A DNA stretch of 22,312 nucleotides from positions 71,782-94,093 of the IMG/VR virus record IMGVR_UViG_3300038809_000021; one strand, given 5' to 3'. Under the pieces are notes generated by a model. That model was not told where the DNA came from. It did no database searches and saw only the letters and a list, made by a program, of their open reading frames with translations. The stretch comes from a virus. Position numbers and translations under genes: made by a program. Positions 20-20,809 of this stretch are shown piece by piece. The first letter of the stretch is position 1; the number at the start of each line of letters is the position of its first letter.

Positions 20-586
20 ATGAAGGCTTCGATTCTGATAGCCACCCTGAGAGAAATCTCGGAGCCGGACGTGCAGATCACCGAAGAAGCACAGCAAGCC
101 TACGCAGATGCAGAGGACTGGCTGTGCCGGCGGATGAACGTGATCTTCCATCAGATTCGCGGCATGGGTTATCAGCCGCAGCTCTTCAAGAAAACGATTG
201 CCTGCTACATGGAAGGCAATCGTGATCCGATGATGGGCAAGGGCAAGGACTTCGTGTTCGTGCCCATGTGTGCAACCTACATTGGCGACGAGCGTGTGTA
301 TCTGTTTCGCACAATGCCCGAAGGACCAGCGAAAGCAGGCGCAATGTGGGGAATGAACAACAGCGGTGCCATCGGCTACACACGCGAGTATCTGAATCGT
401 GTGTCGCCGGAACTGGCCAACTACATCGCCAAGCTTGAGAACAAGGCGATGCAGGATGAATCAGTGCGTGAAAGCTTCACCCGGCTCGGGGCGATTCTTC
501 GTCCCAAGCAGTTCAAAGAAGAGCAGATCGCCGAGCGTGCAAAGGCGTATGCAGACAAGGGCGACGAGTTCGGTGGATGGGCGTGA
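20..586 (+). CDS. Hypothetical protein with C-terminal FGGWA tag; may be 5'-truncated
   Basis: 188-aa ORF with phage-like codon usage. The frame stays open to the window edge (SIRVAT upstream of the ATG), so the true start may lie outside the window. Ends ...KGDEFGGWA*. Confidence 0.8.
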   Translation: MKASILIATLREISEPDVQITEEAQQAYADAEDWLCRRMNVIFHQIRGMGYQPQLFKKTIACYMEGNRDPMMGKGKDFVFVPMCATYIGDERVYLFRTMPEGPAKAGAMWGMNNSGAIGYTREYLNRVSPELANYIAKLENKAMQDESVRESFTRLGAILRPKQFKEEQIAERAKAYADKGDEFGGWA

Positions 587-1500
587 GCATGAACTACAGC
601 AACTTCAAGGAGTACCTGAACCAACTCGGCACAGACGTGCGCGGGTTTGGGAACATGCTCAACAATCCCGAGCAAGAGGTTGACCCTGACACCGGCGAGC
701 AAAGCTGGAAGCTGCTGAACCCGATGATCAATGACCTGGTGGATGGCAGATCACCAGGCGTGATCGAGGACTTCTACGTCTGGCTGCACACCGCTGCGCG
801 TGAGCTGAGCAACGACGCGAAGTACGCCATCGAAACCATCGACGAGACAAGCCCGGAAGCAACTGATGTCCGGGCGATCGCTGAGCTTGCAGAGCAGGTG
901 AAGACGCTCAACGAACTCGTGACCAACTACGGACAGCGCCTGGCGAAAGCGAAGCCCTGGACGAAGATGCTGGGTTCGACGATGGAGGTATATCGCTTCT
1001 GGAACGACAGAAGCGGTGCCAATCACGGTACGCCAGAGAAGCGTGGCATGGAGCCGCGCAAACTGCCGACCGCCAGCGTCAAGATCGTGGTCATCGAAGA
1101 CGACAACGGCAACAGCCGGGCCGCTATCTCCTGTTCCGACAATCACTATCGTCGGGACGAGAGCATTCCGGGTGCGCCTGACATCGGTCAAGCGTTCGTC
1201 TTCGACGTGTCCAAGATGATCGCTGGCTATCTCGGTAGCACGAGCGGCGGTCGAGTTCGAGCCAGGACAATGGGTGTCGCAACCATGTCCCGCGAAGACT
1301 ACGTACTGGAGACGATGCAGCTTTCCAAGTTGCTGGTGCATGGCATCGCTGACATGGCAGAGACGATGCACAAACACGGGTATCTGGTCGACACCGATAA
1401 CCTTTACATGCTGCGCGATGTCGCGCCCTATAAACCAGGCAAAGGCGTTCTCCCCGAAGAGAACCCGGATGCCATCATTGAAATCGGATCGTGGTCATGA
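577..1500 (+). CDS. Hypothetical protein with C-terminal IGSWS tag
   Basis: About 305-aa ORF overlapping the upstream stop; alternative starts are GTG 583 and ATG 589. Ends ...IIEIGSWS*. Confidence 0.8.
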   Translation: MGVSMNYSNFKEYLNQLGTDVRGFGNMLNNPEQEVDPDTGEQSWKLLNPMINDLVDGRSPGVIEDFYVWLHTAARELSNDAKYAIETIDETSPEATDVRAIAELAEQVKTLNELVTNYGQRLAKAKPWTKMLGSTMEVYRFWNDRSGANHGTPEKRGMEPRKLPTASVKIVVIEDDNGNSRAAISCSDNHYRRDESIPGAPDIGQAFVFDVSKMIAGYLGSTSGGRVRARTMGVATMSREDYVLETMQLSKLLVHGIADMAETMHKHGYLVDTDNLYMLRDVAPYKPGKGVLPEENPDAIIEIGSWS

Positions 1501-2039
1501 ACAAGAAGCCAGAACGCTGGACGACAATCGTCGGCTATCCCAAATACGAGGTGTCGGATCATGGCCGGGTTCGGTCTTTGGTTCACTTCGACCTCCACGG
1601 AGTCCCAAGACTGCTTTCCTTGGTGCCGTGCAGCAAGAAAAAGGGTGTCGCCAAGTATCTGATGGTGGGCCTCGTGCGCAACGGCATGAAAGAGAGCCGG
1701 ATGATTCACCGTCTGGTCCTGGAACACTTCGTCGGGCCACCGCCGACCCCGAAACACCAGGGCGCGCACAACGACGGCAACGGCTTCAACAACTACTGGG
1801 AGAACCTGCGCTGGGCAACCCAGACCGAGAACGAGAAGGACAAGATCGCACACGGGACAGTGGCGACCGGCGTGACTCACGGGAAATCTGTTTTGACCGA
1901 AGAGCAGGTCAGGGAGATACTGAGCGTCACAAAGTGGGAACGTGGGATGGTCAACGACTTCGCTGCCAAGTTCGGGGTGAAGCCAGGGGCCATATCTAAA
2001 ATCAAGACGGGTATCCGTTGGAAGAGCCTAAAACTATGA
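1497..2039 (+). CDS. NUMOD4-HNH homing endonuclease with C-terminal HTH
   Basis: NUMOD4-like WTTIVGYPKYEVSDHGRVRS, HNH_3-like HRLVLEHF...HNDGNGFNNYWENLRW, and HTH-like LTEEQVREI...AKFGV...ISKIKTG. Start taken at the ATGA overlap (1497). Confidence 0.9.
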   Translation: MNKKPERWTTIVGYPKYEVSDHGRVRSLVHFDLHGVPRLLSLVPCSKKKGVAKYLMVGLVRNGMKESRMIHRLVLEHFVGPPPTPKHQGAHNDGNGFNNYWENLRWATQTENEKDKIAHGTVATGVTHGKSVLTEEQVREILSVTKWERGMVNDFAAKFGVKPGAISKIKTGIRWKSLKL

Positions 2040-2560
2040 GCTGGGCAACGATCCCCAGGTTTCCTGATTATCTGATCAGCGACAATGGCGAAATCATGTC
2101 CTATAAGTCGCGCAACGGGAGAGGCCCGGCGTCTCTCGTTGGCAGATTGAAGAAGCCTACGAAGGTCAAAGGCAAGAAGTATTTTCAGGTTGCTCTAATT
2201 GATGTCACTGGCACCAAGATTTTTCGCAAGGTTCATTTGCTCGTGCTGGAAGCATTCGTTGGACCGTGCCCGCCTGGGATGGAAGGCTGTCATGATGACG
2301 GTGATGCAGCGAACAACAAGCTTTCCAACTTGCGCTGGGATACGCACAAGAACAACATTGAAGATCAAGTGAAGCACGGTACACGTCGTCGCGGCACTGA
2401 CATTGGAATATCGGTGCTGACAGAAGATCAAGTTCGAGAAATCAAAGCTGCGCTTCCAGGCTGGAAGCATGGCACTGGCAGATTCTTTGCCAGAAAATTC
2501 GGCGTTGGAGACAACGCTATTCACTCGGTGAAGACCGGCAAAACGTGGAGTCATGTATGA
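2036..2560 (+). CDS. NUMOD4-HNH homing endonuclease with C-terminal HTH (second tandem copy)
   Basis: WATIPRFPDYLISDNGEI, VHLLVLEAFVGPCP...CHDDGDAANNKLSNLRWDT, LTEDQVREI...RKFGV. ATGA overlap start at 2036. Confidence 0.9.
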   Translation: MSWATIPRFPDYLISDNGEIMSYKSRNGRGPASLVGRLKKPTKVKGKKYFQVALIDVTGTKIFRKVHLLVLEAFVGPCPPGMEGCHDDGDAANNKLSNLRWDTHKNNIEDQVKHGTRRRGTDIGISVLTEDQVREIKAALPGWKHGTGRFFARKFGVGDNAIHSVKTGKTWSHV

Positions 2561-3126
2561 GCGTTATTCAAATTTTGGGTCTGGACCCTTCGTTGAGAAA
2601 TTTTGGCCTTGCCAAAGGCGAGCTGAACCTGGAAACCCTGGAGTGGACCATCGGCAGTGTCGAGCTGGTCAAGACAGAGAAGGGCAAGTCCAAGACCGTG
2701 CGCAAGAACAGCGACGACTTCGATCGCTGCCGGATTCTGTACGAAGGCATGAAAGAGGCCGAGAAGGGCGCACAGATGGCGTTCGTTGAAATGCCGGTCG
2801 GTAGTCAGAGTGCAGCCGCAATGCTCTCATACGGCGCCTGCATCGCTCTGATCGCAGCTCTGGACATCCCGGTCATTCAAGTGACCCCAAGTCAGGTCAA
2901 GCAGCATGCAACCGGCGACAAGCATGCGACGAAAGAAGAAATGATCGTGTGGGCTACCAAGAAATTCCCCGACGCGAACTGGCTGCGCCAAGGTCAACGC
3001 TTCATCGCTGCGAACGAACACCTCGCAGACGCATGCGGTGCAGTGAACGCCGGTCTCCAGACTGACGACTTCAAGGCACTGCAAGTCATGATGAAGCGCA
3101 TGACTGCCTCGCTAAAAGCGAATTGA
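2557..3126 (+). CDS. ruvC: RuvC-like Holliday junction resolvase
   Basis: RNase H-fold motifs ILGLDPSLRNFG, FVEMP, VTPSQVK...ATKEEM and EHLADA. ATGA overlap start at 2557. Confidence 0.85.
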   Translation: MSVIQILGLDPSLRNFGLAKGELNLETLEWTIGSVELVKTEKGKSKTVRKNSDDFDRCRILYEGMKEAEKGAQMAFVEMPVGSQSAAAMLSYGACIALIAALDIPVIQVTPSQVKQHATGDKHATKEEMIVWATKKFPDANWLRQGQRFIAANEHLADACGAVNAGLQTDDFKALQVMMKRMTASLKAN

Positions 3127-3159
3127 CCGATTACAATCCCGCACCCTGAGAAATACAAT
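3127..3159 (+). promoter_or_regulatory. Putative nrdA promoter (variant of the CC-N8-CC-N13-YAnnnT element)
   Basis: CCC at 3138-3140, then 13 nt, then TACAAT at 3154-3159. The upstream CC is shifted by 2 nt (3127-3128). Confidence 0.55.
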
Positions 3160-3200
3160 GGGTTGTGTTCACAGCCCATTTTCAATACTACATCTACGAA
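3153..3200 (+). promoter_or_regulatory. Tandem NrdR-box-like operators
   Basis: ATACAATGGGTTGTGT (3153-3168; 12/16 match to ACACWATATATWGTGT) and ATACTACATCTACGAA (3185-3200; 9/16), starting 32 bp apart directly upstream of nrdA. Confidence 0.5.
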
Positions 3201-3212
3201 GGACATTACCCC

Positions 3213-5477
3213 ATGCAGGTCGTCAAATCTGATGGCACCCGGCAAGACCTCGACATTTCCAAAATTCAGAAGCACGGAGCCTGGGCTTGCGAAGGGCTGA
3301 ACGTCAGCCAGTCCGAGTTCGAATGCAACATGCACCTCCAGTTCTTCGATGGCATGTCCACGAGCAACATCGCAGACGCACAGATTCAGACCGCAGCAAG
3401 CATGATCAGCCTCAAGAACCCGGACTACGACAAGGTTGCCGCCAAGTTCGTGATCCAGAAAATCTACAAGCAAGCAACCGGCGGGGGCATCGATTACCCT
3501 CACCTCTCTGTCACGCTGGGCAAAGGCGTTGGCTTCGGTCAGATCGACCCACGTCTGACTGACGGCCGCTTCAACCTCGACGTGCTGTCCGCAGCAATCG
3601 AGCCACAGCGCGACTTCATGTTCGGCTACCTGGGCATTCAAACCCTCGCTGACCGCTATCTTCTGACTGAACCGCTGACCACCGGCGGCACGAAGAAAAT
3701 CTACGAAATGCCGCAGCATCTGCTGATGCGCGTGGCAATGGGCTTGTCGATCAACGAAGACCGCCCGACCGAACGTGCCATCGAGTTCTACGATGTCATG
3801 AGTGAGCAAGAATACTTCCCATCTACGCCGACCCTGTTCAACTCGGGCACAACACGGCCGCAGATGTCGTCCTGCTACCTGGGCTTCGTACCCGATGACC
3901 TGAAAGACATCTTCGACTACGGCATCACCAAGAACGCGCTGCTGAGCAAGTTCGCAGGTGGTATCGGTACCGACTGGACTTCTGTGCGCGCCAACGGCAG
4001 CGTGATCAAGTCTACCAACGGTGTCAGCAAGGGCGTCGTCCCGTTTCTCAAGATTTTCAACGACACCGCAGTGGCTGTGAACCAGGGCGGCAAGCGCAAG
4101 GGCAGCTTCGCACCGTACCTCGAAATCTGGCACGCGGACTTCTTCGACTTCGCAGACTTGCGCTTGCAGACCGGCGACGACTACATGCGTACCCCGGACA
4201 TTCACCCGGCGTCGTGGATTCCTGACCTGTTCATGGAGCGCAAGCAAGCCGGCCTGGATTGGAGCTTCTTCTGCCCGAGCGATGTTCCTGACCTGCATGA
4301 CCTGCACGGCAAGGCTTTCGAGAAGGCATACGTCAAAGCCGAGAAGGCTGGCCTGGCTCGCAAGACTGTTCCGGCAATGGACGTCTGGAAGTACCTGCTC
4401 GACAAGCTCGTTCGCACCGGCTACCCCTGGATCAACTTCAAGGACGAGTGCAACCGCCGCAACCCGCAGTCTCACGTCGGCGTGATCCACAACAGCAACC
4501 TCTGCACTGAAATCACCCTGAACAACAGCCGCGATGAAATCGCAGTCTGCAACCTGGGCTCGATCATTCTGCCGAACATCAAAGGCAGCCAGCACATGAA
4601 GCGCGTGGTCAGCACCGCTATTCGCATGCTGGACAACGTGATCGATCTGAACCTGTACCCGGTCCCGGAAGCAGAGCGCAGCAACATGCGTCACCGCCCA
4701 ATCGGTCTGGGTGTGATGGGCTACCAGGAAATGATGGTTCAGAAAGACATCGCCTGGGACAGCCAAGATCACTTGCAGTTTGCGGACGAGCTGTTCGAAG
4801 AAATCTCCTACTACGCCATTCAGGCGTCGATGGAGCTGGCCAAAGTACGCGGTGCCTACGAAAGCTTCCCAGGTTCCAAGTGGAGCATGGGTCAGTTGCC
4901 GATTCACCACGCTCGTGATCAGAAGTGCAACGTGTTCGCCCGCATGGAGTGGGACATCCTGGGTGAAGAAGTCGCCAAGAATGGTATCCGCAACAGCAAC
5001 CTGATGGCGATCGCACCGACTGCCACCATCGCGAACATCATCGGCACGACTGAGTGCATTCAGCCGATCAACGAACGCGCCGTGATCAAAGAGAATCTGT
5101 CCGGCAACTTCACCTGGATCAACTCGCTTGAGAAGTACGGCAAGCCTGATCTGGTCAAGACGGTGTGGGAAATCGATCAGGTCTACAGCATCAAGGCCGC
5201 AGCGCGTCGTCAGAAGTGGATTTGCCAGTCGCAGTCGCTGAACATCTATCGCAAGAAGGAACACACCGGTCGCATCCTCGATCAGTGGTACACCCTTGCA
5301 TGGGAGCTGGGCGTCAAGACCACCTACTACCTCCGCAACCACAAGGAAGACGAAGCAGCCAAGTACCCGAAGCCAGACATGAACGTGCCGATCAAACTGC
5401 CGGTTGAACCGACCGTCTTCGATCAGCAGATCGCCGGCAACCAGGACGAAGCGTTTGTCTGCGAGGCTTGCCAGTAA
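3213..5477 (+). CDS. nrdA: Ribonucleoside-diphosphate reductase class Ia, alpha subunit
   Basis: N-terminal ATP cone (MQVVKSDG...), PSTPTLFNSGT, MSSCYL, NSNLCTEI (radical Cys), VCNLGSI, APTAT, KTTYYLR and C-terminal CEACQ. SD-like GAAGGA before ATG 3213. Confidence 0.97.
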   Translation: MQVVKSDGTRQDLDISKIQKHGAWACEGLNVSQSEFECNMHLQFFDGMSTSNIADAQIQTAASMISLKNPDYDKVAAKFVIQKIYKQATGGGIDYPHLSVTLGKGVGFGQIDPRLTDGRFNLDVLSAAIEPQRDFMFGYLGIQTLADRYLLTEPLTTGGTKKIYEMPQHLLMRVAMGLSINEDRPTERAIEFYDVMSEQEYFPSTPTLFNSGTTRPQMSSCYLGFVPDDLKDIFDYGITKNALLSKFAGGIGTDWTSVRANGSVIKSTNGVSKGVVPFLKIFNDTAVAVNQGGKRKGSFAPYLEIWHADFFDFADLRLQTGDDYMRTPDIHPASWIPDLFMERKQAGLDWSFFCPSDVPDLHDLHGKAFEKAYVKAEKAGLARKTVPAMDVWKYLLDKLVRTGYPWINFKDECNRRNPQSHVGVIHNSNLCTEITLNNSRDEIAVCNLGSIILPNIKGSQHMKRVVSTAIRMLDNVIDLNLYPVPEAERSNMRHRPIGLGVMGYQEMMVQKDIAWDSQDHLQFADELFEEISYYAIQASMELAKVRGAYESFPGSKWSMGQLPIHHARDQKCNVFARMEWDILGEEVAKNGIRNSNLMAIAPTATIANIIGTTECIQPINERAVIKENLSGNFTWINSLEKYGKPDLVKTVWEIDQVYSIKAAARRQKWICQSQSLNIYRKKEHTGRILDQWYTLAWELGVKTTYYLRNHKEDEAAKYPKPDMNVPIKLPVEPTVFDQQIAGNQDEAFVCEACQ

Positions 5478-5491
5478 ATCCTCACGCTGAC

Positions 5492-5522
5492 CCATGATGT
5501 CCCACACTTCGAGCGCTATTAT
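5492..5522 (+). promoter_or_regulatory. Putative phage promoter CC-N8-CC-N13-TATTAT
   Basis: CC atgatgtc CC acacttcgagcgc TATTAT. Confidence 0.6.
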
Positions 5523-5539
5523 TAGCGCTCGAATTCTTT
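5508..5539 (+). terminator. Intrinsic terminator-like hairpin after nrdA
   Basis: Perfect 11-bp stem TTCGAGCGCTA/TAGCGCTCGAA with a 4-nt loop, followed by TTCTTT. Confidence 0.6.
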
Positions 5540-5563
5540 CAAACACACGCAGCGAGACAAACG

Positions 5564-9028: not shown

Positions 9029-9589
9029 ATGCCAGCTAAAAGAAAGCTGGTGCAAGGAGTGGGCGTCAATGACGCCCCTTTCTCTGTACCCACCAACGAC
9101 CCGATCTACCGTTCTTGGCTGAGAATGCTTTATCGTTGCTATGGCCCTCCTACAGTCCAAAGCGCCTCATACGTCGGCTGCACAGTTGAGCCGGCATGGC
9201 ACAGCTTCATGAATTTCAGAGAGTGGGTGCTGACCCAAGACTGGGAAGGCAACCAGCTCGACAAAGACCTTCTGGTTCCGGGCAACAAGGTGTACGGGCC
9301 GCTGCGTTGCTGTTTCGTCCCTCGCTACATCAACATGATCGGCCCACGTCTGCACACCCCATGTGTCAAACGCGAACCAAGAGGCAAACCCTGGGGCGCA
9401 CGCATCAATGCCAATGGGAAGTTCGTCTGGCTCGGCTCGTTCAACACAGAGCAAGAAGCAATCGACGCATGGAAGAAAGCGCGGTCAGAAGACGTGCTGA
9501 GACTGCTGTCCCGGTACCAGCTTGAGTCGAAGAAGCCTGACTCAAGAGTGGTGATCGCGTTACGTGCGGTGGCAGCAGGTCTAGTCTGA
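9029..9589 (+). CDS. HNH-AP2 homing endonuclease
   Basis: GVGVND, YRSWLRMLYRCY, W..F..FREW, LDKDLL..GNKVYGP..CCFVP..IN, then AP2-like WGARINANGKFVWLGSFNTEQEA. Confidence 0.88.
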   Translation: MPAKRKLVQGVGVNDAPFSVPTNDPIYRSWLRMLYRCYGPPTVQSASYVGCTVEPAWHSFMNFREWVLTQDWEGNQLDKDLLVPGNKVYGPLRCCFVPRYINMIGPRLHTPCVKREPRGKPWGARINANGKFVWLGSFNTEQEAIDAWKKARSEDVLRLLSRYQLESKKPDSRVVIALRAVAAGLV

Positions 9590-10193: not shown

Positions 10194-11194
10194 ACAAGCA
10201 CGACAAGACCTACCTGGACACCTGCAAGAGTCTGCTGGAGAACGGCTTCCCAAGCGATGATCGCACCGGTACCGGCACCATCAAGGACTTCGGTCTGCAC
10301 ATGCGTTTCCCCATGAAACACGGCTTCCCTCTGCTGACCACCAAGAAAGTGCCAATCCGGCTGATCGAGCTTGAGCTGCGCATGTTCCTGCTGGGCATCA
10401 CCGACAACAACTTCCTGAAAGACCAAGACGTTCACATCTGGGATGCTTTCGCGAACGACGATGGCTACCTGGGTGAGATTTACGGCGCAATGTGGCGTCG
10501 TTGGCCGGGCAAGGGCACAGCTCACTTCTCGGCAGCAGAAGGTAGCTGGGTCAGCTATGAGCGAATCGACCAGATTGCCGAACTGATGAAAATGCTGCGC
10601 GAGAACCCGAACAGCCGTCGCAAGCTGGTATCGGGCTGGAACCCGGCTCTGCTGCCAGTTGAGGGCGTATCGCACGCAGATAACGTCAACGCCGGTCTGC
10701 AAGCGCTGCCGCCATGTCACACCATGTGGCAGGTTCACTGTCGCAACCTGACGATCCCCGAGCGCGAAGCGATCCACAAAGAGAAGAACGGTGGTCGACT
10801 GATCGGCAGCAAGACCGAAGAATTCCGGCATCAAGTGCTGGATCGTCTCGATGTTCCCCGCATTGGTGTCAGCTTGCAGCTTTATCAGCGCAGCGCCGAC
10901 ATGTTCCTGGGTGTGCCGTTCAACATCGCTTCCTACAGCCTGTTGCTGCACTACATCGCAGCCAGCCTGGGTATGCAGCCAATCGACTTCATCTGGAACG
11001 GCGGTGACTGTCACATCTACAACAACCACGTCGAGCAGATGCAGACGCAGATTGCCAGGCTGAAAGAGTGCCCGGCCAGCCCACAACTGTGGATTGGCAA
11101 CCCGAAAGACGATCTGTGGGATTACACTGCGGACGACATCGAGCTGCGCAACTACTTCCCAATGGCAGCGATTAAAGGAGCTGTAGCGGTATGA
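10190..11194 (+). CDS. thyA: Thymidylate synthase
   Basis: DRTGTGT, FPLLTTKK, NPNSRR, ALPPCH (catalytic Cys), LYQRSADMFLGVPFNIASY (dUMP-specifying Asn) and GDCHIYNNH; about 40-aa insertion after PPCH. GTGA overlap start. Confidence 0.97.
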   Translation: MNKHDKTYLDTCKSLLENGFPSDDRTGTGTIKDFGLHMRFPMKHGFPLLTTKKVPIRLIELELRMFLLGITDNNFLKDQDVHIWDAFANDDGYLGEIYGAMWRRWPGKGTAHFSAAEGSWVSYERIDQIAELMKMLRENPNSRRKLVSGWNPALLPVEGVSHADNVNAGLQALPPCHTMWQVHCRNLTIPEREAIHKEKNGGRLIGSKTEEFRHQVLDRLDVPRIGVSLQLYQRSADMFLGVPFNIASYSLLLHYIAASLGMQPIDFIWNGGDCHIYNNHVEQMQTQIARLKECPASPQLWIGNPKDDLWDYTADDIELRNYFPMAAIKGAVAV

Positions 11195-13553: not shown

Positions 13554-13574
13554 ATTGACGAGAGGAAAGTGGGA

Positions 13575-13925: not shown

Positions 13926-14122
13926 TGAAAAAGTTTCTTGCAACTGCGGGCGTCGTTGTCGTGTTTCTCCTGATTGCAGCCGCTGTCACCGCCGGTGTTC
14001 GCTATTTCAGCAGCGTGACGACTCGCCTGGACGTGCTGACGCCGAAGCCGGGTGTCGAGTGTGTTCTCGCTTCCACTGCCGATGGCGCCGCCCTGGCCTG
14101 CAACTGGAGTACGCCGAAGTGA
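13922..14122 (+). CDS. Small membrane-anchored protein
   Basis: MMKK followed by a hydrophobic helix; PKPGVEC...LACNW Cys pair. Confidence 0.75.
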   Translation: MMKKFLATAGVVVVFLLIAAAVTAGVRYFSSVTTRLDVLTPKPGVECVLASTADGAALACNWSTPK

Positions 14123-14544: not shown

Positions 14545-14984
14545 GCGGGCGGGAAGAACGCAGCGCACGCATGCACCAGCGACTTGAGCGGGAAGCGCAG
14601 CGACAGCGCACCGAGTACATCAAGTCGCTGGAGAGCGAGCTGCAAGCGCTCAAAGCCCTGGTCTGGGCCGCTGTCGAAGACCAGATGGATCACGTCAATG
14701 TTCACCCGTGCGACGAACACAGCGAAGACGTCAAAGCGCGGGGAATGCCACCCGTTTATCAGGAACTGTACAAGGCGGTCAAAATGCAGGCAGATAACAA
14801 ACCGCTTTCGATTCACTTCAACGCTGACAGCGTGACAATCGAAGGCATCACCTATTCGAACGACATGTTCCGCCAGTTCGGCGGGCTCATGCCGCTCAAT
14901 CAGACCTTCCGTCTGGTGCAGCGCAGCACCGGTATCAGCTCGGGGAGCATCACCGTCGAGTACGTGGATCAGGAGAAGAAATGA
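14541..14984 (+). CDS. Hypothetical protein
   Basis: GTGA overlap start; N-terminal coiled coil. Confidence 0.7.
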   Translation: MSGREERSARMHQRLEREAQRQRTEYIKSLESELQALKALVWAAVEDQMDHVNVHPCDEHSEDVKARGMPPVYQELYKAVKMQADNKPLSIHFNADSVTIEGITYSNDMFRQFGGLMPLNQTFRLVQRSTGISSGSITVEYVDQEKK

Positions 14985-15172
14985 AGCGACTGCTGGTTGT
15001 ACGCTTCCCAAATGGCACCTGGAGCTATGGCGGGAAAGAATCGGACCCGGATTATAAGCATTGCGAGAAATACTGGGTAGAAACCAACAAGTCCAGTCTT
15101 GAGCCAAAGCAGGCCATCAAGATTGCGCAGGGTCGCCGATCACGGGCGAAGAAGGCTGAACATGGCGATTGA
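14981..15172 (+). CDS. Small basic hypothetical protein
   Basis: 63 aa; GGAG SD; ATGA overlap. Confidence 0.7.
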   Translation: MKRLLVVRFPNGTWSYGGKESDPDYKHCEKYWVETNKSSLEPKQAIKIAQGRRSRAKKAEHGD

Positions 15173-15578
15173 AATCAAAATCGACGACGCGGTGATCCAG
15201 AAGCTGGCCGACGAAGCAGTTCAGCGGGCGGTGAAGTCCACCGTTGAAAGCTCGTCGGTCATCAAGCAGGCTGTCGAGAAAGCGATCGCCAGCGTGAAGA
15301 TCGACACTAAGCAAATCGAAGACGCCGTAACCCAGTCGATCAAGGACGTCACCAGCAACCCGGCGTTCCTGAATGACCTGGTTCGAGCAGCGATCTTGAA
15401 GGGCGCTGACAAGCTGACCGGCTCGTTCGACGCCAGCCTGCGCGCAGCAGGCAAGAAACTCGCAATGGATCCAGACACGCTTGAAGAGGTGGCCGCTGGC
15501 GTCAAAGCGAAACTATCCGTCGAAGCACAAGAACGCCTGGCTGACTACGAAGCCAAAGGCATGGGAAAATTTGCATGA
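15162..15578 (+). CDS. Hypothetical helical protein with degenerate C-terminal tag MGKFA
   Basis: Starts MAIEIKIDD; Ala/Lys-rich helices. Confidence 0.75.
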   Translation: MAIEIKIDDAVIQKLADEAVQRAVKSTVESSSVIKQAVEKAIASVKIDTKQIEDAVTQSIKDVTSNPAFLNDLVRAAILKGADKLTGSFDASLRAAGKKLAMDPDTLEEVAAGVKAKLSVEAQERLADYEAKGMGKFA

Positions 15579-16021
15579 AAAAGTTCGTGGACAAAGTGTC
15601 GAGACTGGAAGGGAAAGCCAAGCGCAAGCTGCTGCAAAAGCAGGCGCGTGAGCATGATCGCCAGGCCCGCAAGTTTCGCCAAGACGCAATGAAGCTGGGC
15701 TGTGAGCTGGCAGTAGCAGGTGAGAATCTCTACAACAAGCACCATCCGGTCTACGAAGAGCTGATCATGCCTTTGCTGGATGAAGCAGCTCGACTGGCCA
15801 ACAAGTACGGCTTCAACGTGCTGTATCAGACGCACACTCCGCTGCCGGGTCAGCCTATGTACAGCCACGCAATCGGTAGCATGGACAGTCGCACTGTCAC
15901 GCCAACCATGAAGGCTTGCGTCGATCTGATCCAGGCTCGCCCGAAGCTGAGCAGCACTGCCGCTGAGCTGATCACTGACCGTGCAGAGCCAGCACCGAAG
16001 AGCGATACTGACGCAACGTAA
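15575..16021 (+). CDS. Hypothetical protein
   Basis: 148 aa; ATGA overlap. Confidence 0.7.
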   Translation: MKKFVDKVSRLEGKAKRKLLQKQAREHDRQARKFRQDAMKLGCELAVAGENLYNKHHPVYEELIMPLLDEAARLANKYGFNVLYQTHTPLPGQPMYSHAIGSMDSRTVTPTMKACVDLIQARPKLSSTAAELITDRAEPAPKSDTDAT

Positions 16022-16036
16022 TAAAGCGAGAAGGTC

Positions 16037-16468
16037 ATGACCGATCAACCAACAGTGGAAGAAGAGCTTCTCCGTAAAGCGGGCGAAGCTCTTTCGTGGC
16101 TTGCAAACGAGCGCGAGCGTGGGTCGATCACCAAAGAGGCGTACATCGCTGCTCTCCAGGCTTTCGATATGATCTGCCTGGGTTTGGTGCCGACTGAGTA
16201 CAGCGACTGGGCCAAAGGTGAGCGCGACAAGGCAAGCATCGAAATCCCGGACAGCGTGTTGATGCGCAAGCTCAACCGTCTCGTTCGGGTGTCTCTGCGC
16301 CGCAAGATGGGTGAAATCAAGATCACGACGATTGACCCTGACGTTGGCGCGCATCATAAATTCCTGCAATTCGAAGACGAACTCGATCCCATCAAGGCTG
16401 CGTGCAAGCGCTACCCGAAGGTGATCGATAAGCTTTGGGATGCCGGGTTCAGGCAGGTGATGGAATGA
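16037..16468 (+). CDS. Hypothetical protein
   Basis: 143 aa; GAGAAGG upstream of the ATG. Confidence 0.75.
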   Translation: MTDQPTVEEELLRKAGEALSWLANERERGSITKEAYIAALQAFDMICLGLVPTEYSDWAKGERDKASIEIPDSVLMRKLNRLVRVSLRRKMGEIKITTIDPDVGAHHKFLQFEDELDPIKAACKRYPKVIDKLWDAGFRQVME

Positions 16469-17031
16469 AGCCGTTGATCATTGCAGTGGGTGACATCGAG
16501 ACCACAGGTTTCAAGCAGGAAGATGGGCATCGAATCATCGAAATCGCACTGAGCTTTTTCCAGTACGACCAGACGATTCACACGCATCACAAGATCGGCA
16601 AGACCTGGGTCCAGCGAATCAATCCGCATCGCCCGATCGATCCCGGCGCCGAAGCAGTTCACAAGATCAGCCTGGCCATGCTGCGCGGTGCGCCCAAGTG
16701 GGAAGATGTCGCGCCCACAGTGAGCGAGCTGCTGAGCAAGACCGATCTGTTCGTGGCGCACAACGCCGACTTCGATGCTCCCTGGATCGCGCTTGAGCTG
16801 ATCCGAGTCAAGCAGCCCATGCCGACGTTCAACGTGTTCTGCACCATGCAGAACGGTCGAGCAGCGACACCGATGGGTAAAGTGCCCAACCTGGGCGAGC
16901 TGGCCTACGCATGTGGGTTCGATTACGACCCGGATGCAGCGCACAGTGCCAAGTACGACACCGACTTGCTCGCCCAATGCTATTGGAAAGGCATTGAAAT
17001 GAAGATGTTTCCCCGCCCAACCGATCTTTGA
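16465..17031 (+). CDS. DEDDh 3'-5' exonuclease (DnaQ/Pol III epsilon-like)
   Basis: ExoI DIETTG, HRIIEIA, ExoII VAHNADFD and ExoIII AHSAKYD. Confidence 0.92.
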   Translation: MKPLIIAVGDIETTGFKQEDGHRIIEIALSFFQYDQTIHTHHKIGKTWVQRINPHRPIDPGAEAVHKISLAMLRGAPKWEDVAPTVSELLSKTDLFVAHNADFDAPWIALELIRVKQPMPTFNVFCTMQNGRAATPMGKVPNLGELAYACGFDYDPDAAHSAKYDTDLLAQCYWKGIEMKMFPRPTDL

Positions 17032-17034
17032 ACG

Positions 17035-17065
17035 CCACACTATGCCTGTCACGACAGCGCATAGT
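17035..17065 (+). promoter_or_regulatory. Putative phage promoter CC-N8-CC-N13-CATAGT inside the 17037-17067 inverted repeat
   Basis: CC acactatg CC tgtcacgacagcg CATAGT; shares CCTGTCA...ATAGTG with the 9869 site. Confidence 0.55.
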
Positions 17066-17100
17066 GTCTCTACAGAACAGCGCAGCATCAGGAGAAAACG

Positions 17101-17592
17101 ATGTTTATCTACCAAGCACCCGATGGTCGCGGACTCAACAAGTCGGCCTGGGAGAAACACAAAGACGATTCCGACTGGACCGTCAAAGAATTCCGCAACG
17201 ACAAAATCTGGGTGCGCCTGCACTGGATCGGCCGCTACAAGAAAGACCTGCCATCTGAGTATCGTCACTCGCACGGCATCACTGTCTACAACCGCGTCAA
17301 GGTCAAGGGTAGCGAGTGGGCCGAAGAAGGAACCACAGTCGATAAGGGCTGGATCATCGATCCAACCGGTACCCAAACTGCGCGCACGAAGTCGGCGGCG
17401 ATCACGTTGTACGAAGATATGCTGCTGAGCTATGCCGGCGCCAGTCTTGAAGAAGACGAAGATGGCGACCTTGTGCTTGTCGAGACAGGCAATCAGCTCA
17501 AGCCGGTGGTTCTAGGGTCGAAGCTGATCATGGATGAAGAACAGGTAGCAGCCGCTGCGGAGAAAGGCGTCGATCTTGGCGGGTGGTCTTGA
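17101..17592 (+). CDS. Hypothetical protein with C-terminal LGGWS tag
   Basis: AGGAGA SD; 163 aa; ends ...EKGVDLGGWS*. Confidence 0.8.
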   Translation: MFIYQAPDGRGLNKSAWEKHKDDSDWTVKEFRNDKIWVRLHWIGRYKKDLPSEYRHSHGITVYNRVKVKGSEWAEEGTTVDKGWIIDPTGTQTARTKSAAITLYEDMLLSYAGASLEEDEDGDLVLVETGNQLKPVVLGSKLIMDEEQVAAAAEKGVDLGGWS

Positions 17593-18173
17593 GCAGGCAC
17601 TTTGAATTGGAAGACGTCCCAAGTTACTTGAGACGTTTTCCTGTGCTGAAAGACAAGGCAGTCATTGCGCAGGGTGAGTATTCAGTGGTGTTCGAGGGCA
17701 CGCGCCCCGATACAGTGTTGAAGCTCACCTGTGACCATATCAGCGCATCATTCGCAAGACAGCACGGAAGCCCAACGTTCTGTCCGGTGCTTGAGTATCA
17801 CGGCCAGATGGACAGCTTTGATCACGGCCCGGTAATGCTTCTCGAACTGCCAAGACTGCGTGAGCTGTCCTGGGATGAAGATCGCAAGATGTTCATGGAG
17901 CGAGACATGGTGATGGCCGCAGCCAAGTTCCTGATCGCAGAGAGCGAGCAGTTCAATGGCATCGTGGACTGTCAGCAGTGTCACGCAAGCGCACTGGAAG
18001 ACCTCGCTGACAGCGGCATCGTCAGCAACAGCGTCCGACAGGGGCTGAACACGCTGGCCAACTGGATGAGAAAGACAGCGCACGATGTCATGGTGGACAT
18101 CTGCAACCCGAACAACTTTATGACAGATGGTCACCACCTGATCATCACTGATCCAATCAACCCGGTTCTCTGA
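17583..18173 (+). CDS. T7 gp0.7-like Ser/Thr protein kinase
   Basis: Gly-loop IAQGEYSVVF, beta3 Lys in VLKL, catalytic loop DICNPNNFM (DxxxxN), and LIITDP in place of DFG. Start may be TTG 17589. Confidence 0.7.
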   Translation: MVLSRHFELEDVPSYLRRFPVLKDKAVIAQGEYSVVFEGTRPDTVLKLTCDHISASFARQHGSPTFCPVLEYHGQMDSFDHGPVMLLELPRLRELSWDEDRKMFMERDMVMAAAKFLIAESEQFNGIVDCQQCHASALEDLADSGIVSNSVRQGLNTLANWMRKTAHDVMVDICNPNNFMTDGHHLIITDPINPVL

Positions 18174-18190
18174 AAAAGCCCGTCCTATTG

Positions 18191-18221
18191 CCACACATCG
18201 CCGTGTGAGCGTCTGTAATAT
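18191..18221 (+). promoter_or_regulatory. Putative phage promoter CC-N8-CC-N13-TAATAT
   Basis: CC acacatcg CC gtgtgagcgtctg TAATAT, followed by a perfect 10-bp-stem hairpin at 18229-18258. Confidence 0.6.
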
Positions 18222-18293
18222 CAACTCTATCGAAGCGCGACATTTACAGCGCTTCGATTTAACACTCAATCATAAACTTTGCAGGTGAATCAC

Positions 18294-19094
18294 ATGGCAC
18301 GCGCCGCTCTCAAGAAAGTCGAAGATGCTCCAGAAGACACCGTGACCGGCGGCGTCGAAGAACTGGTTCTGAACCAACCTCAAAACCCAGAAGACCTGGA
18401 CGCCATGTTCAGCGAGCTGGAAAACGAACTCGAAAGCGCCGGTGTGAACACGACCGCCGTCATCCCTTCGAACGACAACGAAGCCGACCACATCGCTGCC
18501 GGCCGTCACATCAGCACCGAAGAGCTGAAAGCCAAAGCTCTCGAAGAACTGGAAGAGCAGTCGAAGCCACTGTCTGACGAGTCCCGCAAGCCGGAACCTC
18601 AGAAGAAAAAGGCTCCTGCTACCAAACGCATCAGCACGCTGGGTCTGACCGTCAGCCAAGCGCTCGCCCAGGGTCTGGGTTCGAAGCTCGATGAACTGCT
18701 GACGCTCGACGTTGCCGACCTGTCGCTGAGCGATGAAGACGCCCACGCGAAGCGTCACGAGCTGATGGCCAAGCTCGACGACAAGCTGCCCAAGAAGATC
18801 GGCGAGAAAGTCGTCAATCTCTTCGCCAGCATCGCCAAAGGTGCGAACCTGTCCACCTACACCCGGATCGCAATCGATCTGCTGGTCAAGGACGGCGAAA
18901 TGACCAGCAAGACGCTGAAAGACCAGTACATCGCCCGCCCGTACAGCGAAGGCACGGCCAGCAGCCAGGCGACACAGATGATGAACCTGCTGCCACTGCT
19001 GGGCATCGCCCGCAAAGAAGCCGGGAAGATCGTGCTGAACGACACCAGCTTGCTGCTGCCAATGCTGACTGCGCCAGCACCAGAAGCAGAGTAA
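18294..19094 (+). CDS. Hypothetical protein with acidic disordered N-terminus and possible winged-helix C-terminal domain
   Basis: AGGTGA SD before ATG 18294; strongly biased codon usage; helical C-terminal part ending in a beta-hairpin-like GIARKEAGKIVLN. Confidence 0.8.
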   Translation: MARAALKKVEDAPEDTVTGGVEELVLNQPQNPEDLDAMFSELENELESAGVNTTAVIPSNDNEADHIAAGRHISTEELKAKALEELEEQSKPLSDESRKPEPQKKKAPATKRISTLGLTVSQALAQGLGSKLDELLTLDVADLSLSDEDAHAKRHELMAKLDDKLPKKIGEKVVNLFASIAKGANLSTYTRIAIDLLVKDGEMTSKTLKDQYIARPYSEGTASSQATQMMNLLPLLGIARKEAGKIVLNDTSLLLPMLTAPAPEAE

Positions 19095-19106
19095 TCCACC
19101 AGCAAC

Positions 19107-19137
19107 AGAAGAGCCTGCTTGATTGCGGGCTTTTCTT
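19107..19137 (+). terminator. Intrinsic terminator
   Basis: AGAAGAGCCTGC-ttgatt-GCGGGCTTTTCTT directly after the stop at 19094. Confidence 0.7.
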
Positions 19138-19147
19138 GGAGACGAAA

Positions 19148-19360
19148 ATGTCCACAGAAGAATGCAATGCCGACGTTTACAAACATGGCGGAATCGTAGG
19201 CGTGTTCGACATGCCAAAGGAAGAAGCCGAAGCAGCCTGCAAGAAAGCAACTGAGGAATCCGGCTGCTTGCACGATTGGCACTACGTGGGCGGCCGGGTT
19301 GTCGTCAAAGCGCTGCCGAAAGGCTTCTACAACAAAAAGCCAGAGAGTCCCTGGGCATGA
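19148..19360 (+). CDS. Small hypothetical protein
   Basis: GGAGA SD; 70 aa; contains DWHYVGGRVVVK; ends ESPWA. Confidence 0.75.
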   Translation: MSTEECNADVYKHGGIVGVFDMPKEEAEAACKKATEESGCLHDWHYVGGRVVVKALPKGFYNKKPESPWA

Positions 19361-19914
19361 AAAATCCATTTGCGCCATATCCGTTCCCTAAGCTGACTTG
19401 CGAACTCGTCCCATCTTCTTTGTGGGGCGAGAATCTGCGCAGCTTACTAACCGCCGGCCAGTGGAAAGAGCTGCGCACGGCTTGCTACGTCCGCGCAGGT
19501 CATAAATGCGAAATCTGCGGTGGTGTTGGCAAGGCCCACCCCGTCGAAGCGCATGAAATCTGGCACTACAACGACCAGGAGCGCAGACAGACCTTGATGG
19601 GGCTGATCGCGCTGTGCCCGGCCTGCCACAAGTGCAAGCATATGGGGTTCGCCCAAGCTACCGGAATGCTTGAGGTGTCCATGAAACATATGAGCCACGT
19701 CAACAAGTGGCCGAAAGAATTGGTCGAGGCGTATGTCATGCGGGAGTTTGAAATACACCGGCTTCGTGACCAGCTAAAGTGGACTGTCGATACGAGCTGG
19801 CTCGCAGACGCAGACAGCTACATCAAAGAAGCTGAAAAAGTCTCGAAGGCAGCGCGTACAGAAGCGCTCACAGCGCTGATGAAGTCAAAGCGCAACACTG
19901 ACGCGACGACATAG
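19357..19914 (+). CDS. Zn-binding HNH-family nuclease
   Basis: CEICG...EAHEIW...LIALCPACHKCKH, a His-Me finger with two CxxC pairs; ATGA overlap start. Confidence 0.8.
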   Translation: MKNPFAPYPFPKLTCELVPSSLWGENLRSLLTAGQWKELRTACYVRAGHKCEICGGVGKAHPVEAHEIWHYNDQERRQTLMGLIALCPACHKCKHMGFAQATGMLEVSMKHMSHVNKWPKELVEAYVMREFEIHRLRDQLKWTVDTSWLADADSYIKEAEKVSKAARTEALTALMKSKRNTDATT

Positions 19915-19951
19915 CGAACGCAGCTCACAACGCAGCACAGCGAGCGGGCGC

Positions 19952-19982
19952 CCACGTTCATCCAGCTCTCGCTCGCTACAAT
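19952..19982 (+). promoter_or_regulatory. Putative phage promoter CC-N8-CC-N13-TACAAT
   Basis: CC acgttcat CC agctctcgctcgc TACAAT; overlaps the AGCGAGCG/CGCTCGCT inverted repeat at 19939-19977. Confidence 0.6.
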
Positions 19983-20010
19983 GCAAGTCAGCAAGCAGAG
20001 AGACTTCCCA

Positions 20011-20343
20011 ATGAGCAGAGACTGGGATCCAAGAGAAGAAGATCGAGCCATCAAGCGAGCGCTTATGAGCAGCAAGCAGCGCGATGGGCTCGACAAGTTC
20101 CTGGCCGAGAAGAAAGCGAAAGTCGCCAGCGTGATGGATCGTTTCCAGACCCGGTGTCAGAAGTGCGACGTCACCAGCGGCAAGACGAAGATTTGGCACA
20201 CAGACGACGGCTATCTGTGTGGTCGATGCCTCCCCGAAGGCGTGACACCAGCGCAACTGCTTCAAGAGAAAGAGGCTCAGAAAGAGCATCTGGAAGCCGA
20301 AGCAGAGAAACCAAAACCAGACAGCTACGGTGAATGGGCATGA
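20011..20343 (+). CDS. Zinc-finger protein with C-terminal YGEWA tag
   Basis: CQKC...CGRC. ATG 20011 is preferred because ATG 19981 overlaps the putative -10 box. Confidence 0.75.
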   Translation: MSRDWDPREEDRAIKRALMSSKQRDGLDKFLAEKKAKVASVMDRFQTRCQKCDVTSGKTKIWHTDDGYLCGRCLPEGVTPAQLLQEKEAQKEHLEAEAEKPKPDSYGEWA

Positions 20344-20570
20344 CCAGTCCCTACAAAAAGATTCTCGATCCAGACTTCGACTATGAAGAGGACGGCCGCT
20401 TCAAAGCGCAGCTCAAGTCTGCCATCGAAGAGCGCATCGAAGAAATGGCTCGCATCAAAGCGGGCGGTGTTCGACCTCCTTTGAGAGTCACGATCAAAGG
20501 CACTCCCTTCATCGACCCGGACACCATAGCAGCAGTTGAAATGCCGGAGGACTTTGGCAAATGGGCTTGA
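20340..20570 (+). CDS. Small hypothetical protein with C-terminal FGKWA tag
   Basis: ATGA overlap; 76 aa. Confidence 0.75.
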   Translation: MTSPYKKILDPDFDYEEDGRFKAQLKSAIEERIEEMARIKAGGVRPPLRVTIKGTPFIDPDTIAAVEMPEDFGKWA

Positions 20571-20809
20571 AAGGTAGTGAGCGGGACTGGCGTGCGCTGG
20601 TCCTGGAAATGATGGCTGACGGCATCAACGAGGAAAACTGCAAGAAGCTGATGAAGGACTTCGAAGATATGGAGCTGACGCCGCGCAAAGCGGTGCAGGT
20701 CTATCGCAAGGCTCTTGACACGCACGTCAAGAACCGGGCAAAGGAGGAAAAGAAGGCTGCTGTAGAGGCGGCTATCCCACGACCAGATGTATTCGGCAAA
20801 TGGTCATAA
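20561..20809 (+). CDS. Small hypothetical protein with C-terminal FGKWS tag
   Basis: GGAGG 10 nt upstream of ATG 20561; 82 aa. Confidence 0.75.
   Translation: MGLKGSERDWRALVLEMMADGINEENCKKLMKDFEDMELTPRKAVQVYRKALDTHVKNRAKEEKKAAVEAAIPRPDVFGKWS

What the first reader, a model, noticed from the sequence alone, without database searches (positions are those of the whole stretch)
569..20809. Shared C-terminal tag [DE]-x(0,1)-[FYLI]-G-x-W-[AS]-stop on six unrelated phage proteins
Seen in sequence: six ORFs of different length (76-307 aa) with no visible similarity elsewhere end in DEFGGWA* (569-586), IEIGSWS* (1483-1500), VDLGGWS* (17575-17592), DSYGEWA* (20326-20343), EDFGKWA* (20553-20570) and DVFGKWS* (20792-20809). 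The coordinates cover the last five codons plus the stop. The codons differ between copies, so the conservation is at the peptide level. None of the recognisable enzymes in the window carries the tag. Established: free C-terminal short motifs act as docking signals (SSB acidic tip, T4 gp33/gp55/gp43 clamp-binding tails), as degrons (ssrA), and as PDZ/TPR ligands. Inference: a set of phage proteins converges on one hub, such as a phage or host clamp, RNA polymerase, an AAA+ ATPase or protease, or a capsid-loading machine. I do not recognise this as a described motif.
Basis: partly seen in the sequence, partly recalled or inferred. Interest (0 to 1): 0.9.

Follow-up and report, generated by a model that had tools for sequence, protein, structure and literature searches.

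The report
Shared C-terminal tail on phage proteins
At least seven otherwise unrelated proteins in this stretch of a Pseudomonas phage, and several to fourteen per genome in its distant relatives, end in the same short aromatic-Gly-x-Trp peptide, which behaves like an address label read by one partner that I could not identify.

Summary
All six tails sit at the stated coordinates. A six-frame scan of the 94-kb contig finds G-x-W-[AS]-stop only at those six ORF ends. The wider pattern scores 8 against 0.15 in shuffled termini. The window holds one more variant (GMGKFA) and possibly another (KPESPWA).

Conservation is at the peptide level:
- All four Gly codons are used about evenly.
- Orthologs change codons but keep the motif.
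- Tails without an overlapping downstream start keep the motif.
- Trp is sometimes replaced by Phe.

Syntenic relatives on other hosts carry their own versions:
- Stenotrophomonas and Xanthomonas phages: Y-G-x-W-COOH.
- Rhizobium phage RHEph10: [FY]-G-R-F-COOH.
- Many uncultured ~100-115 kb contigs: [FW]-G-x-W-COOH.
- Possibly SSU5: W-A-T-W-COOH.

Tagged proteins cluster in and beside the replication-recombination module. In relatives they include a WGR and a BRCT protein. An AlphaFold2 model leaves the tail unstructured.

My best reading is a free C-terminal docking motif for one shared reader, probably on the replication or recombination machinery. A C-terminal degron is the main rival. The tail fails the defining features of beta-clamp, SSB-tip and ssrA motifs. 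I found no paper describing it. This scan has noted analogous, differently spelled tags in other phage lineages.

The parts
2..586 (+). Tagged protein 1, ending DEFGGWA*. It is cut by the window start. The full gene is G000 71666-72367, 233 aa, directly after the SbcC-like gene.
   Evidence: Orthologs keep Y-x(4-6)-F-G-x-W-[AG]. AF2 model: folded body, tail residues 229-233 below pLDDT 50.
589..1500 (+). Tagged protein 2, about 303 aa, ending IEIGSWS*. ATG at 589; alternative starts at 577 and 581.
   Evidence: Identity to the nickie and phiK7B1 orthologs is 26% overall, but the last 15 columns are conserved.
15099..15578 (+). Tagged protein with the Phe variant, ending GMGKFA*. The true start may be later.
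   Evidence: Orthologs end GMGNFS (hairong), GMGAFA (nickie) and GLGKFA (phiK7B1).
17101..17592 (+). Tagged protein, 163 aa, ending VDLGGWS*. It overlaps the start of the next gene.
   Evidence: Orthologs end DLGGWS and DAGGWS. Weak match to phrog_5241, function unknown.
19136..19360 (+). Possible degenerate tag, ending KPESPWA*, with no Gly at -4.
   Evidence: Orthologs end LPESPWA (hairong) and PETVSDWA (nickie). Membership is uncertain.
19981..20343 (+). Tagged protein, 120 aa, ending KPKPDSYGEWA*.
20334..20570 (+). Tagged protein, about 76-78 aa, ending MPEDFGKWA*.
20561..20809 (+). Tagged protein, about 80-82 aa, ending IPRPDVFGKWS*. It stops at TAA, and the next gene starts 14 nt later behind its own GAGG.
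   Evidence: This tail is kept without any overlapping downstream start.

Best explanation
The tail is a free C-terminal short linear motif. Its core is aromatic/hydrophobic-Gly-x-Trp/Phe, followed by zero or one small residue and the carboxylate. It usually follows a Pro/acidic linker and often a Tyr 5-8 residues upstream. It sits on a flexible end of many unrelated non-structural proteins and acts as a common docking handle for one shared reader protein. Candidates are the gp32-like SSB, the DnaE polymerase with its unusual UDG-like C-terminal domain, the RecA-like and SbcCD-like proteins, and the CobS/CobT AAA+-vWA pair. A host partner is less likely. Shown here: the motif, its statistics, its peptide-level conservation, its spread, its position outside the fold in the one model made, and where the tagged genes lie. 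Inferred: that it binds anything, and to what.
For: Statistics: 6 of 6 exact hits are real gene ends among 1670 six-frame ORFs. The wider pattern gives 8 against 0.15 (G000), 14 against 0.28 (hairong), 13 against 0.64 (BUCTxx99), 7 against 0.75 (JGB6) and 7 against 0.55 (RHEph10) in shuffles.

Peptide-level selection: in tails selected for Gly at -4, its codons are GGA 19, GGT 16, GGG 14 and GGC 12. Trp (42) alternates with Phe (17). 10 of 61 tails have no candidate overlapping start, and 8 end in TAA. Between the window and hairong, the motif positions carry synonymous changes only, plus one Phe-to-Tyr change.

Conservation: the tail is better conserved than the linker and the body. Values are 0.83 against 0.54 and 0.60 for protein 1, and 0.65 against 0.44 and 0.38 for protein 2. 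Alignment A1 shows the same.

Spread: syntenic relatives that share about 40 core genes carry lineage-specific spellings that are largely uniform within a genome. These are Y-G-x-W-COOH on 9 consecutive genes of BUCTxx99 and 6-8 genes of JGB6, [FY]-G-[RM]-F-COOH on 7 RHEph10 genes, and [FYW]-G-x-W in about 25 of 79 IMG/VR loci at 37-71% gp32 identity. Junction sequences differ between lineages (TGGTAATG against TGGGCATGA), yet the peptide persists.

Structure: AF2 leaves the tail unstructured after a terminal helix.

Context: conserved tagged positions lie after the primase, after RecA and after SbcCD. Tagged proteins in relatives include a WGR-domain and a BRCT-domain protein.
Against: No binding partner is identified. 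No gene was found that is present only in tag-bearing genomes. None of the recognised replication or repair enzymes carries the tag (ligase, 5'-3' exonuclease, DnaQ, RuvC, primase, helicase), which is unlike classical clamp or SSB hubs. Most tagged proteins are small ORFans of unknown function, so a role in DNA metabolism is inferred from a few members and from gene position. A strongly aromatic free C-terminus could equally serve as a protease signal. W and F versions coexist in some genomes, so strict co-evolution with one pocket is not demonstrated.
Confidence: 0.55

Rival explanations
1. C-terminal degron. The exposed aromatic tail marks these proteins for timed degradation by a host AAA+ protease (Lon, ClpXP/ClpAP or FtsH) or by a phage machine, limiting early and middle functions to a time window.
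For: The tail is free, terminal and hydrophobic, and it follows a flexible linker. It sits on many small, fast-evolving ORFans. Its spread across phages of alpha- and gamma-proteobacteria fits a universal host protease. C-terminal non-polar or aromatic degrons are established (ssrA; the Mycoplasma ssrA tag ending YAFA read by Lon; both from my own knowledge).
Against: The motif is more specific than known degrons: Gly at -4 is kept in nearly all tails seen, two aromatics lie three residues apart, and there is an upstream Tyr/Pro. It lacks the Ala-Ala-COOH that ClpX needs. It also marks conserved module proteins next to SbcCD and the primase. Nothing here measures stability.
Confidence: 0.2
2. 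The reader is specifically the phage CobS/CobT-like MoxR AAA+/vWA pair. This pair has no CobN client in these genomes and would capture the tails, for example through the vWA MIDAS site and the terminal carboxylate.
For: All tag-bearing genomes examined encode CobT and CobS in the replication module. CobT here has a CobT_N domain, an acidic linker and a vWA domain with the DCSGS MIDAS motif. Cryo-EM preprints show that CobT is the adaptor between the CobS ring and a client. Earlier notes of this scan raised the same idea for other tags, but they are not independent evidence.
Against: Roseobacter phage CRP-810 and Gordonia phage Jams encode CobT homologs but have no such tails. In the chelatase, CobN contacts CobT through a helical domain, not a terminal peptide. 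The position of the carboxylate relative to Trp differs between lineages.
Confidence: 0.1
3. The tails are non-canonical host beta-clamp-binding motifs.
For: They are five-residue, C-terminal, polar-hydrophobic-small-x-aromatic peptides (NFGRF, NYGDW) that superficially resemble QLGLF-COOH. The phages use a DnaE polymerase, and I found no phage clamp.
Against: The canonical motif is Q-phi-x-[LM]-[FL]. Position 4 is required to be hydrophobic, and Phe-to-Trp weakens binding (review PMC11139829). In the tails, position 4 is variable and mostly polar, and the last aromatic is mostly Trp. The phage DnaE itself carries a canonical-type QKVLL where I recall E. coli alpha having QADMF. Enzymes that usually use clamps lack the tail.
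Confidence: 0.06
4. By-product of overlapping translation signals. The peptide would merely be the upstream-frame reading of the Shine-Dalgarno sequence, spacer and start codon of the next gene.
For: 43 of 61 tails end in ATGA, TTGA or GTGA. 5 of 6 window tails contain a candidate start using the Trp codon. In nickie the Gly-Gly codons spell GGAGG six bases before the ATG. This explains the excess of GCA and TCA as the last codon.
Against: Gly codons are used evenly. The x position is often AAA or GAA with no SD. Tails followed by TAA and a separate SD keep the motif (window 20809; nickie and phiK7B1 orthologs). Relatives with a different junction (TGGTAATG) keep aromatic-G-x-W. Trp-to-Phe needs two base changes.
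Confidence: 0.03
5. Sorting signal for another destination, for example loading into the capsid for co-injection, membrane association or direct nucleic-acid contact.
For: In hairong, one tagged protein is annotated as a host nuclease inhibitor. Such a function would be useful at the moment of DNA entry. C-terminal cargo peptides after flexible linkers are known from encapsulins, whose shells share the HK97 fold (own knowledge).
Against: No tag lies in the structural module. The tagged genes lie among replication, recombination and nucleotide-metabolism genes. Pfam does not confirm the Gam annotation. I found no virion proteome.
Confidence: 0.05

Closest known systems
T4/RB69 sliding-clamp-binding C-termini (gp43, gp33, gp55)
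   Same: Short hydrophobic or aromatic peptides at the extreme C-terminus of unrelated phage proteins that converge on one ring-shaped hub (own knowledge; T4 reviews listed).
   Different: No gp45-like clamp was found here. The motif spelling differs. 7-14 proteins per genome carry it in the genomes scanned whole. The polymerase and other enzymes do not carry it.
T7 acidic C-terminal tails of gp2.5 and gp4 docking on gp5 polymerase
   Same: An acidic linker ending in an essential aromatic residue with a free carboxylate, shared by unrelated replisome proteins of one phage (own knowledge).
   Different: T7 has two carriers and a terminal Phe after an acidic run. Here there is a Gly-containing aromatic-G-x-W core, a Pro/Tyr context and many carriers. 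Binding to the polymerase is untested.
Bacterial SSB C-terminal tip (DDDIPF-COOH)
   Same: A flexible tail ending in an aromatic residue, used as a hub signal in DNA metabolism.
   Different: Polarity is reversed. The SSB tip sits on one hub protein and is read by many partners. Here many proteins carry the tail, and the gp32-like SSB ends in an acidic LLEAE without it.
Beta-clamp-binding motif Q-phi-x-[LM]-[FL]
   Same: A five-residue linear motif, often C-terminal, in disordered tails (PMC11139829).
   Different: There is no Gln. Position 4 is polar or variable. Trp is the usual last aromatic. See the membership test.
ssrA-type C-terminal degrons
   Same: A short non-polar signal at the free C-terminus that can be placed on any protein.
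   Different: The end is not Ala-Ala-COOH. The motif is longer and more specific. No evidence of turnover.
Analogous shared tails noted by this scan in other phage lineages (acidic-Val, PExxL, [GA]LFD, [KR]LF and others)
   Different: The spelling and the phage group differ. Those are AI notes, mostly unchecked.

Membership tests
Beta-clamp-binding motif (CBM) | Gln at position 1 | tested here: not met
   The position before the first aromatic is G, D, E, N or S in 59 tails, never predominantly Q. Definition from PMC11139829.
Beta-clamp-binding motif (CBM) | Leu or Met at position 4 (subsite I) | tested here: not met
   The x position is G, A, K, S, E, T, D or R.
Beta-clamp-binding motif (CBM) | Phe or Leu as last motif residue (Trp weakens binding) | tested here: not met
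   Trp in 42 of 59 Nickievirus tails, and in nearly all BUCTxx99 and JGB6 tails. Only RHEph10 uses Phe.
Beta-clamp-binding motif (CBM) | Binds the DnaN pocket | not testable with these tools
   Needs a peptide-binding assay with purified DnaN.
T4-type clamp-binding C-termini | The phage encodes a gp45-like clamp | tested here: not met
   No clamp family among the module proteins scanned. The protein next to DnaE has a UvsY-like C-terminal part. The 241-aa candidate is all-alpha. Not every ORF was scanned.
SSB C-terminal tip | The motif sits on the SSB and ends Pro-Phe-COOH after an acidic run | tested here: not met
   The SSB is gp32-like and ends DSLLEAE. The tails sit on other proteins and have Gly-x before the aromatic.
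ssrA-like ClpX degron | Ala-Ala-COOH (LAA) at the end | tested here: not met
   The last two residues are W/F plus A/S, or x plus W/F.
HbYX / GQYL proteasome-docking tails | Penultimate aromatic plus one residue, read by a 20S alpha ring | tested here: not met
   The pattern fits only the Nickievirus spelling. Relatives end directly in W or F. The host genera are proteobacteria, in which I know of no 20S proteasome (own knowledge).
Free C-terminal short linear docking motif (generic) | Lies in a disordered terminal segment outside the fold | tested here: met
   In the one protein modelled, AF2 gives tail residues 229-233 pLDDT below 50 after a helix at 207-224. Preceding linkers are rich in Pro, Glu and Lys.
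Free C-terminal short linear docking motif (generic) | Conserved more than its flanks across orthologs, on unrelated bodies | tested here: met
   The bodies have no common family.
Free C-terminal short linear docking motif (generic) | A defined reader domain binds it | not testable with these tools
   No reader was identified. This needs pull-down or peptide-binding experiments.

The most novel reading that the evidence does not exclude
A large group of ~100-115 kb phages and phage-plasmids, on Pseudomonas, Stenotrophomonas, Xanthomonas, Rhizobium and possibly enterobacteria (SSU5-type), uses an undescribed address system. A phage-encoded hub reads the aromatic-G-x-W C-terminus, and the phage plugs 3 to 15 interchangeable accessory proteins into its replication-recombination factory through it. 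Candidate hubs are the UDG-like domain that replaces the tau-binding end of the phage DnaE, the gp32-like SSB acting with reversed polarity, or the client-less CobS/CobT motor. New accessory genes would become functional simply by acquiring the tail.
Probability: 0.3. Interest if true: 0.8.

Novelty: new variant of a known kind. Interest (0 to 1): 0.62.

Why it matters
Shared terminal peptides are among the few sequence features that can assign dozens of phage ORFans to one pathway at once. That covers Pseudomonas syringae biocontrol phages and possibly SSU5-type phage-plasmids. The tail would become a portable handle for targeting or pulling down the phage replication factory. It would also give a function test for the long-unexplained phage CobS/CobT pair or the UDG-like end of phage DnaE. 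Together with the other lineage-specific tags seen in this scan, it suggests that plug-in docking tails are a general and under-described organising principle of large phage genomes.

Tried and rejected
1. Structure-based complex prediction. I tested an 82-aa tagged protein against a panel of the gp32-like SSB, the CobT vWA domain and P. aeruginosa DnaN. The verdict was 'no answer' (score 0.00, mark 0.32). This counts neither for nor against any of the three.
2. Phage clamp hunt.
   - The 446-aa ORF next to DnaE has no Pfam family and a UvsY-like C-terminal part.
   - The conserved 241-aa phrog_2500 protein upstream of DnaB folds as a confident all-alpha protein with no PDB match, so it is not a clamp.
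3. Function of tagged bodies. Pfam and PHROGs gave nothing for the window proteins. The AF2 model of protein 1 has no Foldseek match in the PDB.
4. Phyletic profiling for a reader gene present only in tag-bearing genomes. All core genes are shared across RHEph10 and SSU5 as well, and both carry their own tail versions. No discriminating gene emerged.
5. Mimicry check. No core protein has an internal copy of the motif in a telling place.
6. Boundary-linker recombination idea, in which conserved DNA at gene junctions drives shuffling. I rejected it because the nucleotides are not conserved.
7. Frameshift or readthrough at the stop. I considered this and dropped it. There is no slippery site, and the motif also occurs before TAA followed by a spacer.
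8. IMG/VR scans for two exact spellings first suggested a Nickievirus-only feature. This was overturned by unbiased tail counting in relatives.
9. Literature. I found no description of the motif.

Full report
**Where the window lies.** The window is bases 71782-94093 of a 94-kb IMG/VR viral contig. It is 86% identical in DNA to Pseudomonas phage hairong and about 74% to nickie and phiK7B1. All are genus Nickievirus, about 112 kb, and infect P. syringae. In my reading all window genes are on the + strand. Pfam recognises two HNH/NUMOD4 endonucleases, NrdA, NrdB, ThyA, a DHFR-like protein, an AAA_28 kinase-like protein and a DnaQ-type exonuclease. The rest is unknown. Upstream in the contig lie PhoH, DnaB, primase, ligase, CobT, CobS, DnaE, a gp32-like SSB, a 5'-3' exonuclease, RecA and SbcCD.

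**The observation.**
- In a mechanical six-frame scan of the whole contig (1670 stop-to-stop ORFs), G.W[AS]$ occurs six times, all at these + strand gene ends.
- With a wider pattern the contig has 8 hits against 0.15 expected from shuffled termini. Hairong has 14 against 0.28.
- From 59 distinct tails selected with G-x-[WF]-[ASGE]$ in seven Nickievirus-like sources, the logo is [KR]-P-[ED]-[GDE]-[FYM]-G-x-[W 42/F 17]-[A 34/S 19].

**Is it only the shadow of the next gene's start?** This had to be asked. Five of the six window tails overlap candidate starts: ATGA, TTGA or GTGA at the stop, and an ATG or GTG that uses the TG of the Trp codon. In nickie the Gly-Gly codons spell GGAGG at ideal distance from the ATG. 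The overlap explains why the last codon is so often GCA or TCA and the stop TGA. It does not explain the peptide, for four reasons.
- The four Gly codons at -4 are used 19, 16, 14 and 12 times.
- The x codon is often AAA or GAA.
- 10 of 61 tails have no candidate overlapping start, and 8 end in TAA followed by a separate GAGG. These still keep the motif.
- Trp alternates with Phe, which needs two base changes.

Between the window and hairong, the motif positions differ only by synonymous changes and one Phe/Tyr exchange. In the relatives described below, the junction is built differently (TGG-TAA-TG), yet aromatic-G-x-W remains. I put this rival at 3%.

**Orthologs.**
- The 303-307-aa protein is 26% identical between the window and nickie or phiK7B1. 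Its last 15 columns (AE[ED]NP.A...IG.W[AS]) are the best-conserved block.
- Column conservation for protein 1 is 0.83 in the last six residues, 0.54 in the preceding twenty and 0.60 in the rest.
- For protein 2 the values are 0.65, 0.44 and 0.38.
- An AlphaFold2 model of protein 1 (8 sequences, mean pLDDT 80) ends in a helix at 207-224. Residues 229-233, the motif itself, are below pLDDT 50, so the motif is not part of the fold.

**Spread.** Two exact-spelling scans of IMG/VR at first found multi-tag loci only in Nickievirus-like contigs. An unbiased count of C-terminal patterns changed that picture.
- Stenotrophomonas phage BUCTxx99 has the same gene order and core genes. There the commonest three-residue end pattern by far is YG.W$. 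Nine consecutive minus-strand genes and several others end [N/D/T]-Y-G-x-W-COOH.
- Xanthomonas phage JGB6 has 8 Y-G-x-W-stop matches against 0 in the reversed-pattern control, with tails reading P-[ED]-x-Y-G-x-W.
- Rhizobium phage RHEph10 has seven proteins ending [NH]-P-x-[FY]-G-[RM]-F-COOH.
- Salmonella phage-plasmid SSU5 has two or three proteins ending W-A-T-W or A-W-D-W at orthologous places. This is not above chance on its own: 2 against 0.42, maximum 3.
- Of 79 IMG/VR loci fetched around gp32 homologs (37-71% identity), about 25 show [FYW]-G-x-[WF], with zero or one small residue after it. A Tyr often lies 5-8 residues upstream.
- Whole-contig pattern counts are 6, 4 and 6 against 0 in controls for three complete relatives. 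Their tails are listed.
- Two unrelated phages that merely share a CobT homolog (Roseobacter CRP-810, Gordonia Jams) have no such tails. They do have bacterial-type SSB tips.

The motif is therefore old and family-wide. It is spelled largely uniformly within a genome and somewhat differently between lineages, and it is expanded to 10-15 carriers in the lytic Pseudomonas and Stenotrophomonas lineages.

**Who carries it.**
- In the window, none of the recognised enzymes does.
- Conserved carrier positions are the protein after the primase, the protein after RecA in some lineages, and the one or two proteins directly after SbcC and before RuvC.
- The RHEph10 carrier after the primase has a WGR domain.
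- One BUCTxx99 carrier has a BRCT domain.
- A BUCTxx99 dCMP deaminase ends in a weak version, QQGDW.
- Hairong annotates one carrier as a host nuclease inhibitor, but Pfam does not confirm this.
- No carrier lies in the structural module.

**What reads it.** I could not find out.
- I found no phage clamp. The ORF beside DnaE has a UvsY-like C-terminal part. The conserved 241-aa protein before DnaB is a confident all-alpha fold without a PDB match.
- The tail fails the definition of the beta-clamp motif, Q-phi-x-[LM]-[FL], in which Trp is disfavoured (PMC11139829).
- The phage DnaE carries a canonical-looking QKVLL at residues 921-925, about where I recall E. coli alpha having its internal clamp motif. 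If the phage uses the host clamp, it does so with a normal motif.
This is a free candidate interaction module.
- CobT has a CobT_N domain, an acidic linker and a vWA domain with an intact MIDAS motif. It has no CobN client in the phage. Recent preprints show CobT as the adaptor between the CobS ring and its client.
- No gene is restricted to tag-bearing genomes, and no core protein contains a telling internal copy of the motif.

**Verdict.** The peptide is under selection as a peptide, sits free at the C-terminus in the one protein modelled, and marks many unrelated non-structural proteins across a large phage group.
- Best mechanism: docking to one shared reader, most likely within the replication-recombination factory (0.55).
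- Main rival: degron (0.2).
- Particular readers are each at or below about 0.15.

It works like the T4 clamp-binding and T7 acidic tails but is a member of none of the defined motif families tested. I found no paper that describes it. Earlier notes of this scan report analogous, differently spelled tags in other phage lineages, also without a reader. I rate it a new variant of a known kind, interest 0.62.

Noticed in passing
G000 58789-62172 (upstream of the window; L010:18789-20000 plus L011:1-2172): The phage DnaE polymerase ends in a UDG-superfamily domain (PF03167, E 2.5e-14) instead of the bacterial OB and tau-binding end. It has QKVLL at residues 921-925, about where I recall E. coli alpha having its internal clamp motif.
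   Followed up: partly
G000 46316-47041 (L010:6316-7038): A conserved 241-aa protein (phrog_2500; 605 relatives at E<=0.001 in the representative library) lies just upstream of DnaB. It folds as an all-alpha protein at pLDDT 96.6 with no Foldseek match in the PDB. It has invariant Asp, Arg and Tyr residues. Its function is unknown.
   Followed up: partly
G000 56863-58170 (L010:16863-18167): The CobS-like AAA_5 ATPase has an N-terminal extension of about 160 residues with a weak ROS/MucR zinc-finger-like hit (E 4.7e-4, below the cut-off).
   Followed up: no
window 1491-2039 and 2018-2560: Two tandem HNH_3/NUMOD4 homing-endonuclease genes sit between tagged protein 2 and the RuvC-like gene. Hairong has a GIY-YIG endonuclease after the DHFR gene that I did not see at the matching place in the window, so mobile endonucleases seem to differ between close relatives.
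   Followed up: no
window 9029-9589: This 186-aa ORF has only a sub-threshold DUF4170 hit. Hairong annotates only a much shorter gene in the same interval after nrdB.
   Followed up: no
L107+L108 (BUCTxx99) 53145-56552; JGB6 ORF ending at 10398: The large tail protein of these two relatives ends R-[IM]-G-[IV]-W, which matches the tail pattern. This is probably coincidence, because the Nickievirus counterpart ends differently.
   Followed up: no
window 17583-18173: The gene overlapping the end of tagged protein 17101-17592 was called a T7 gp0.7-like kinase by another first-stage note. Pfam gives no family for it. I did not test the kinase claim.
   Followed up: no
L107 (BUCTxx99) 27312-30077, minus strand: Nine consecutive small genes all carry the tail. 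They sit downstream of a 481-aa 'ATP-binding protein' and a DEAD/DEAH helicase on the same strand, so they may form an operon-like cassette of tagged proteins.
   Followed up: no
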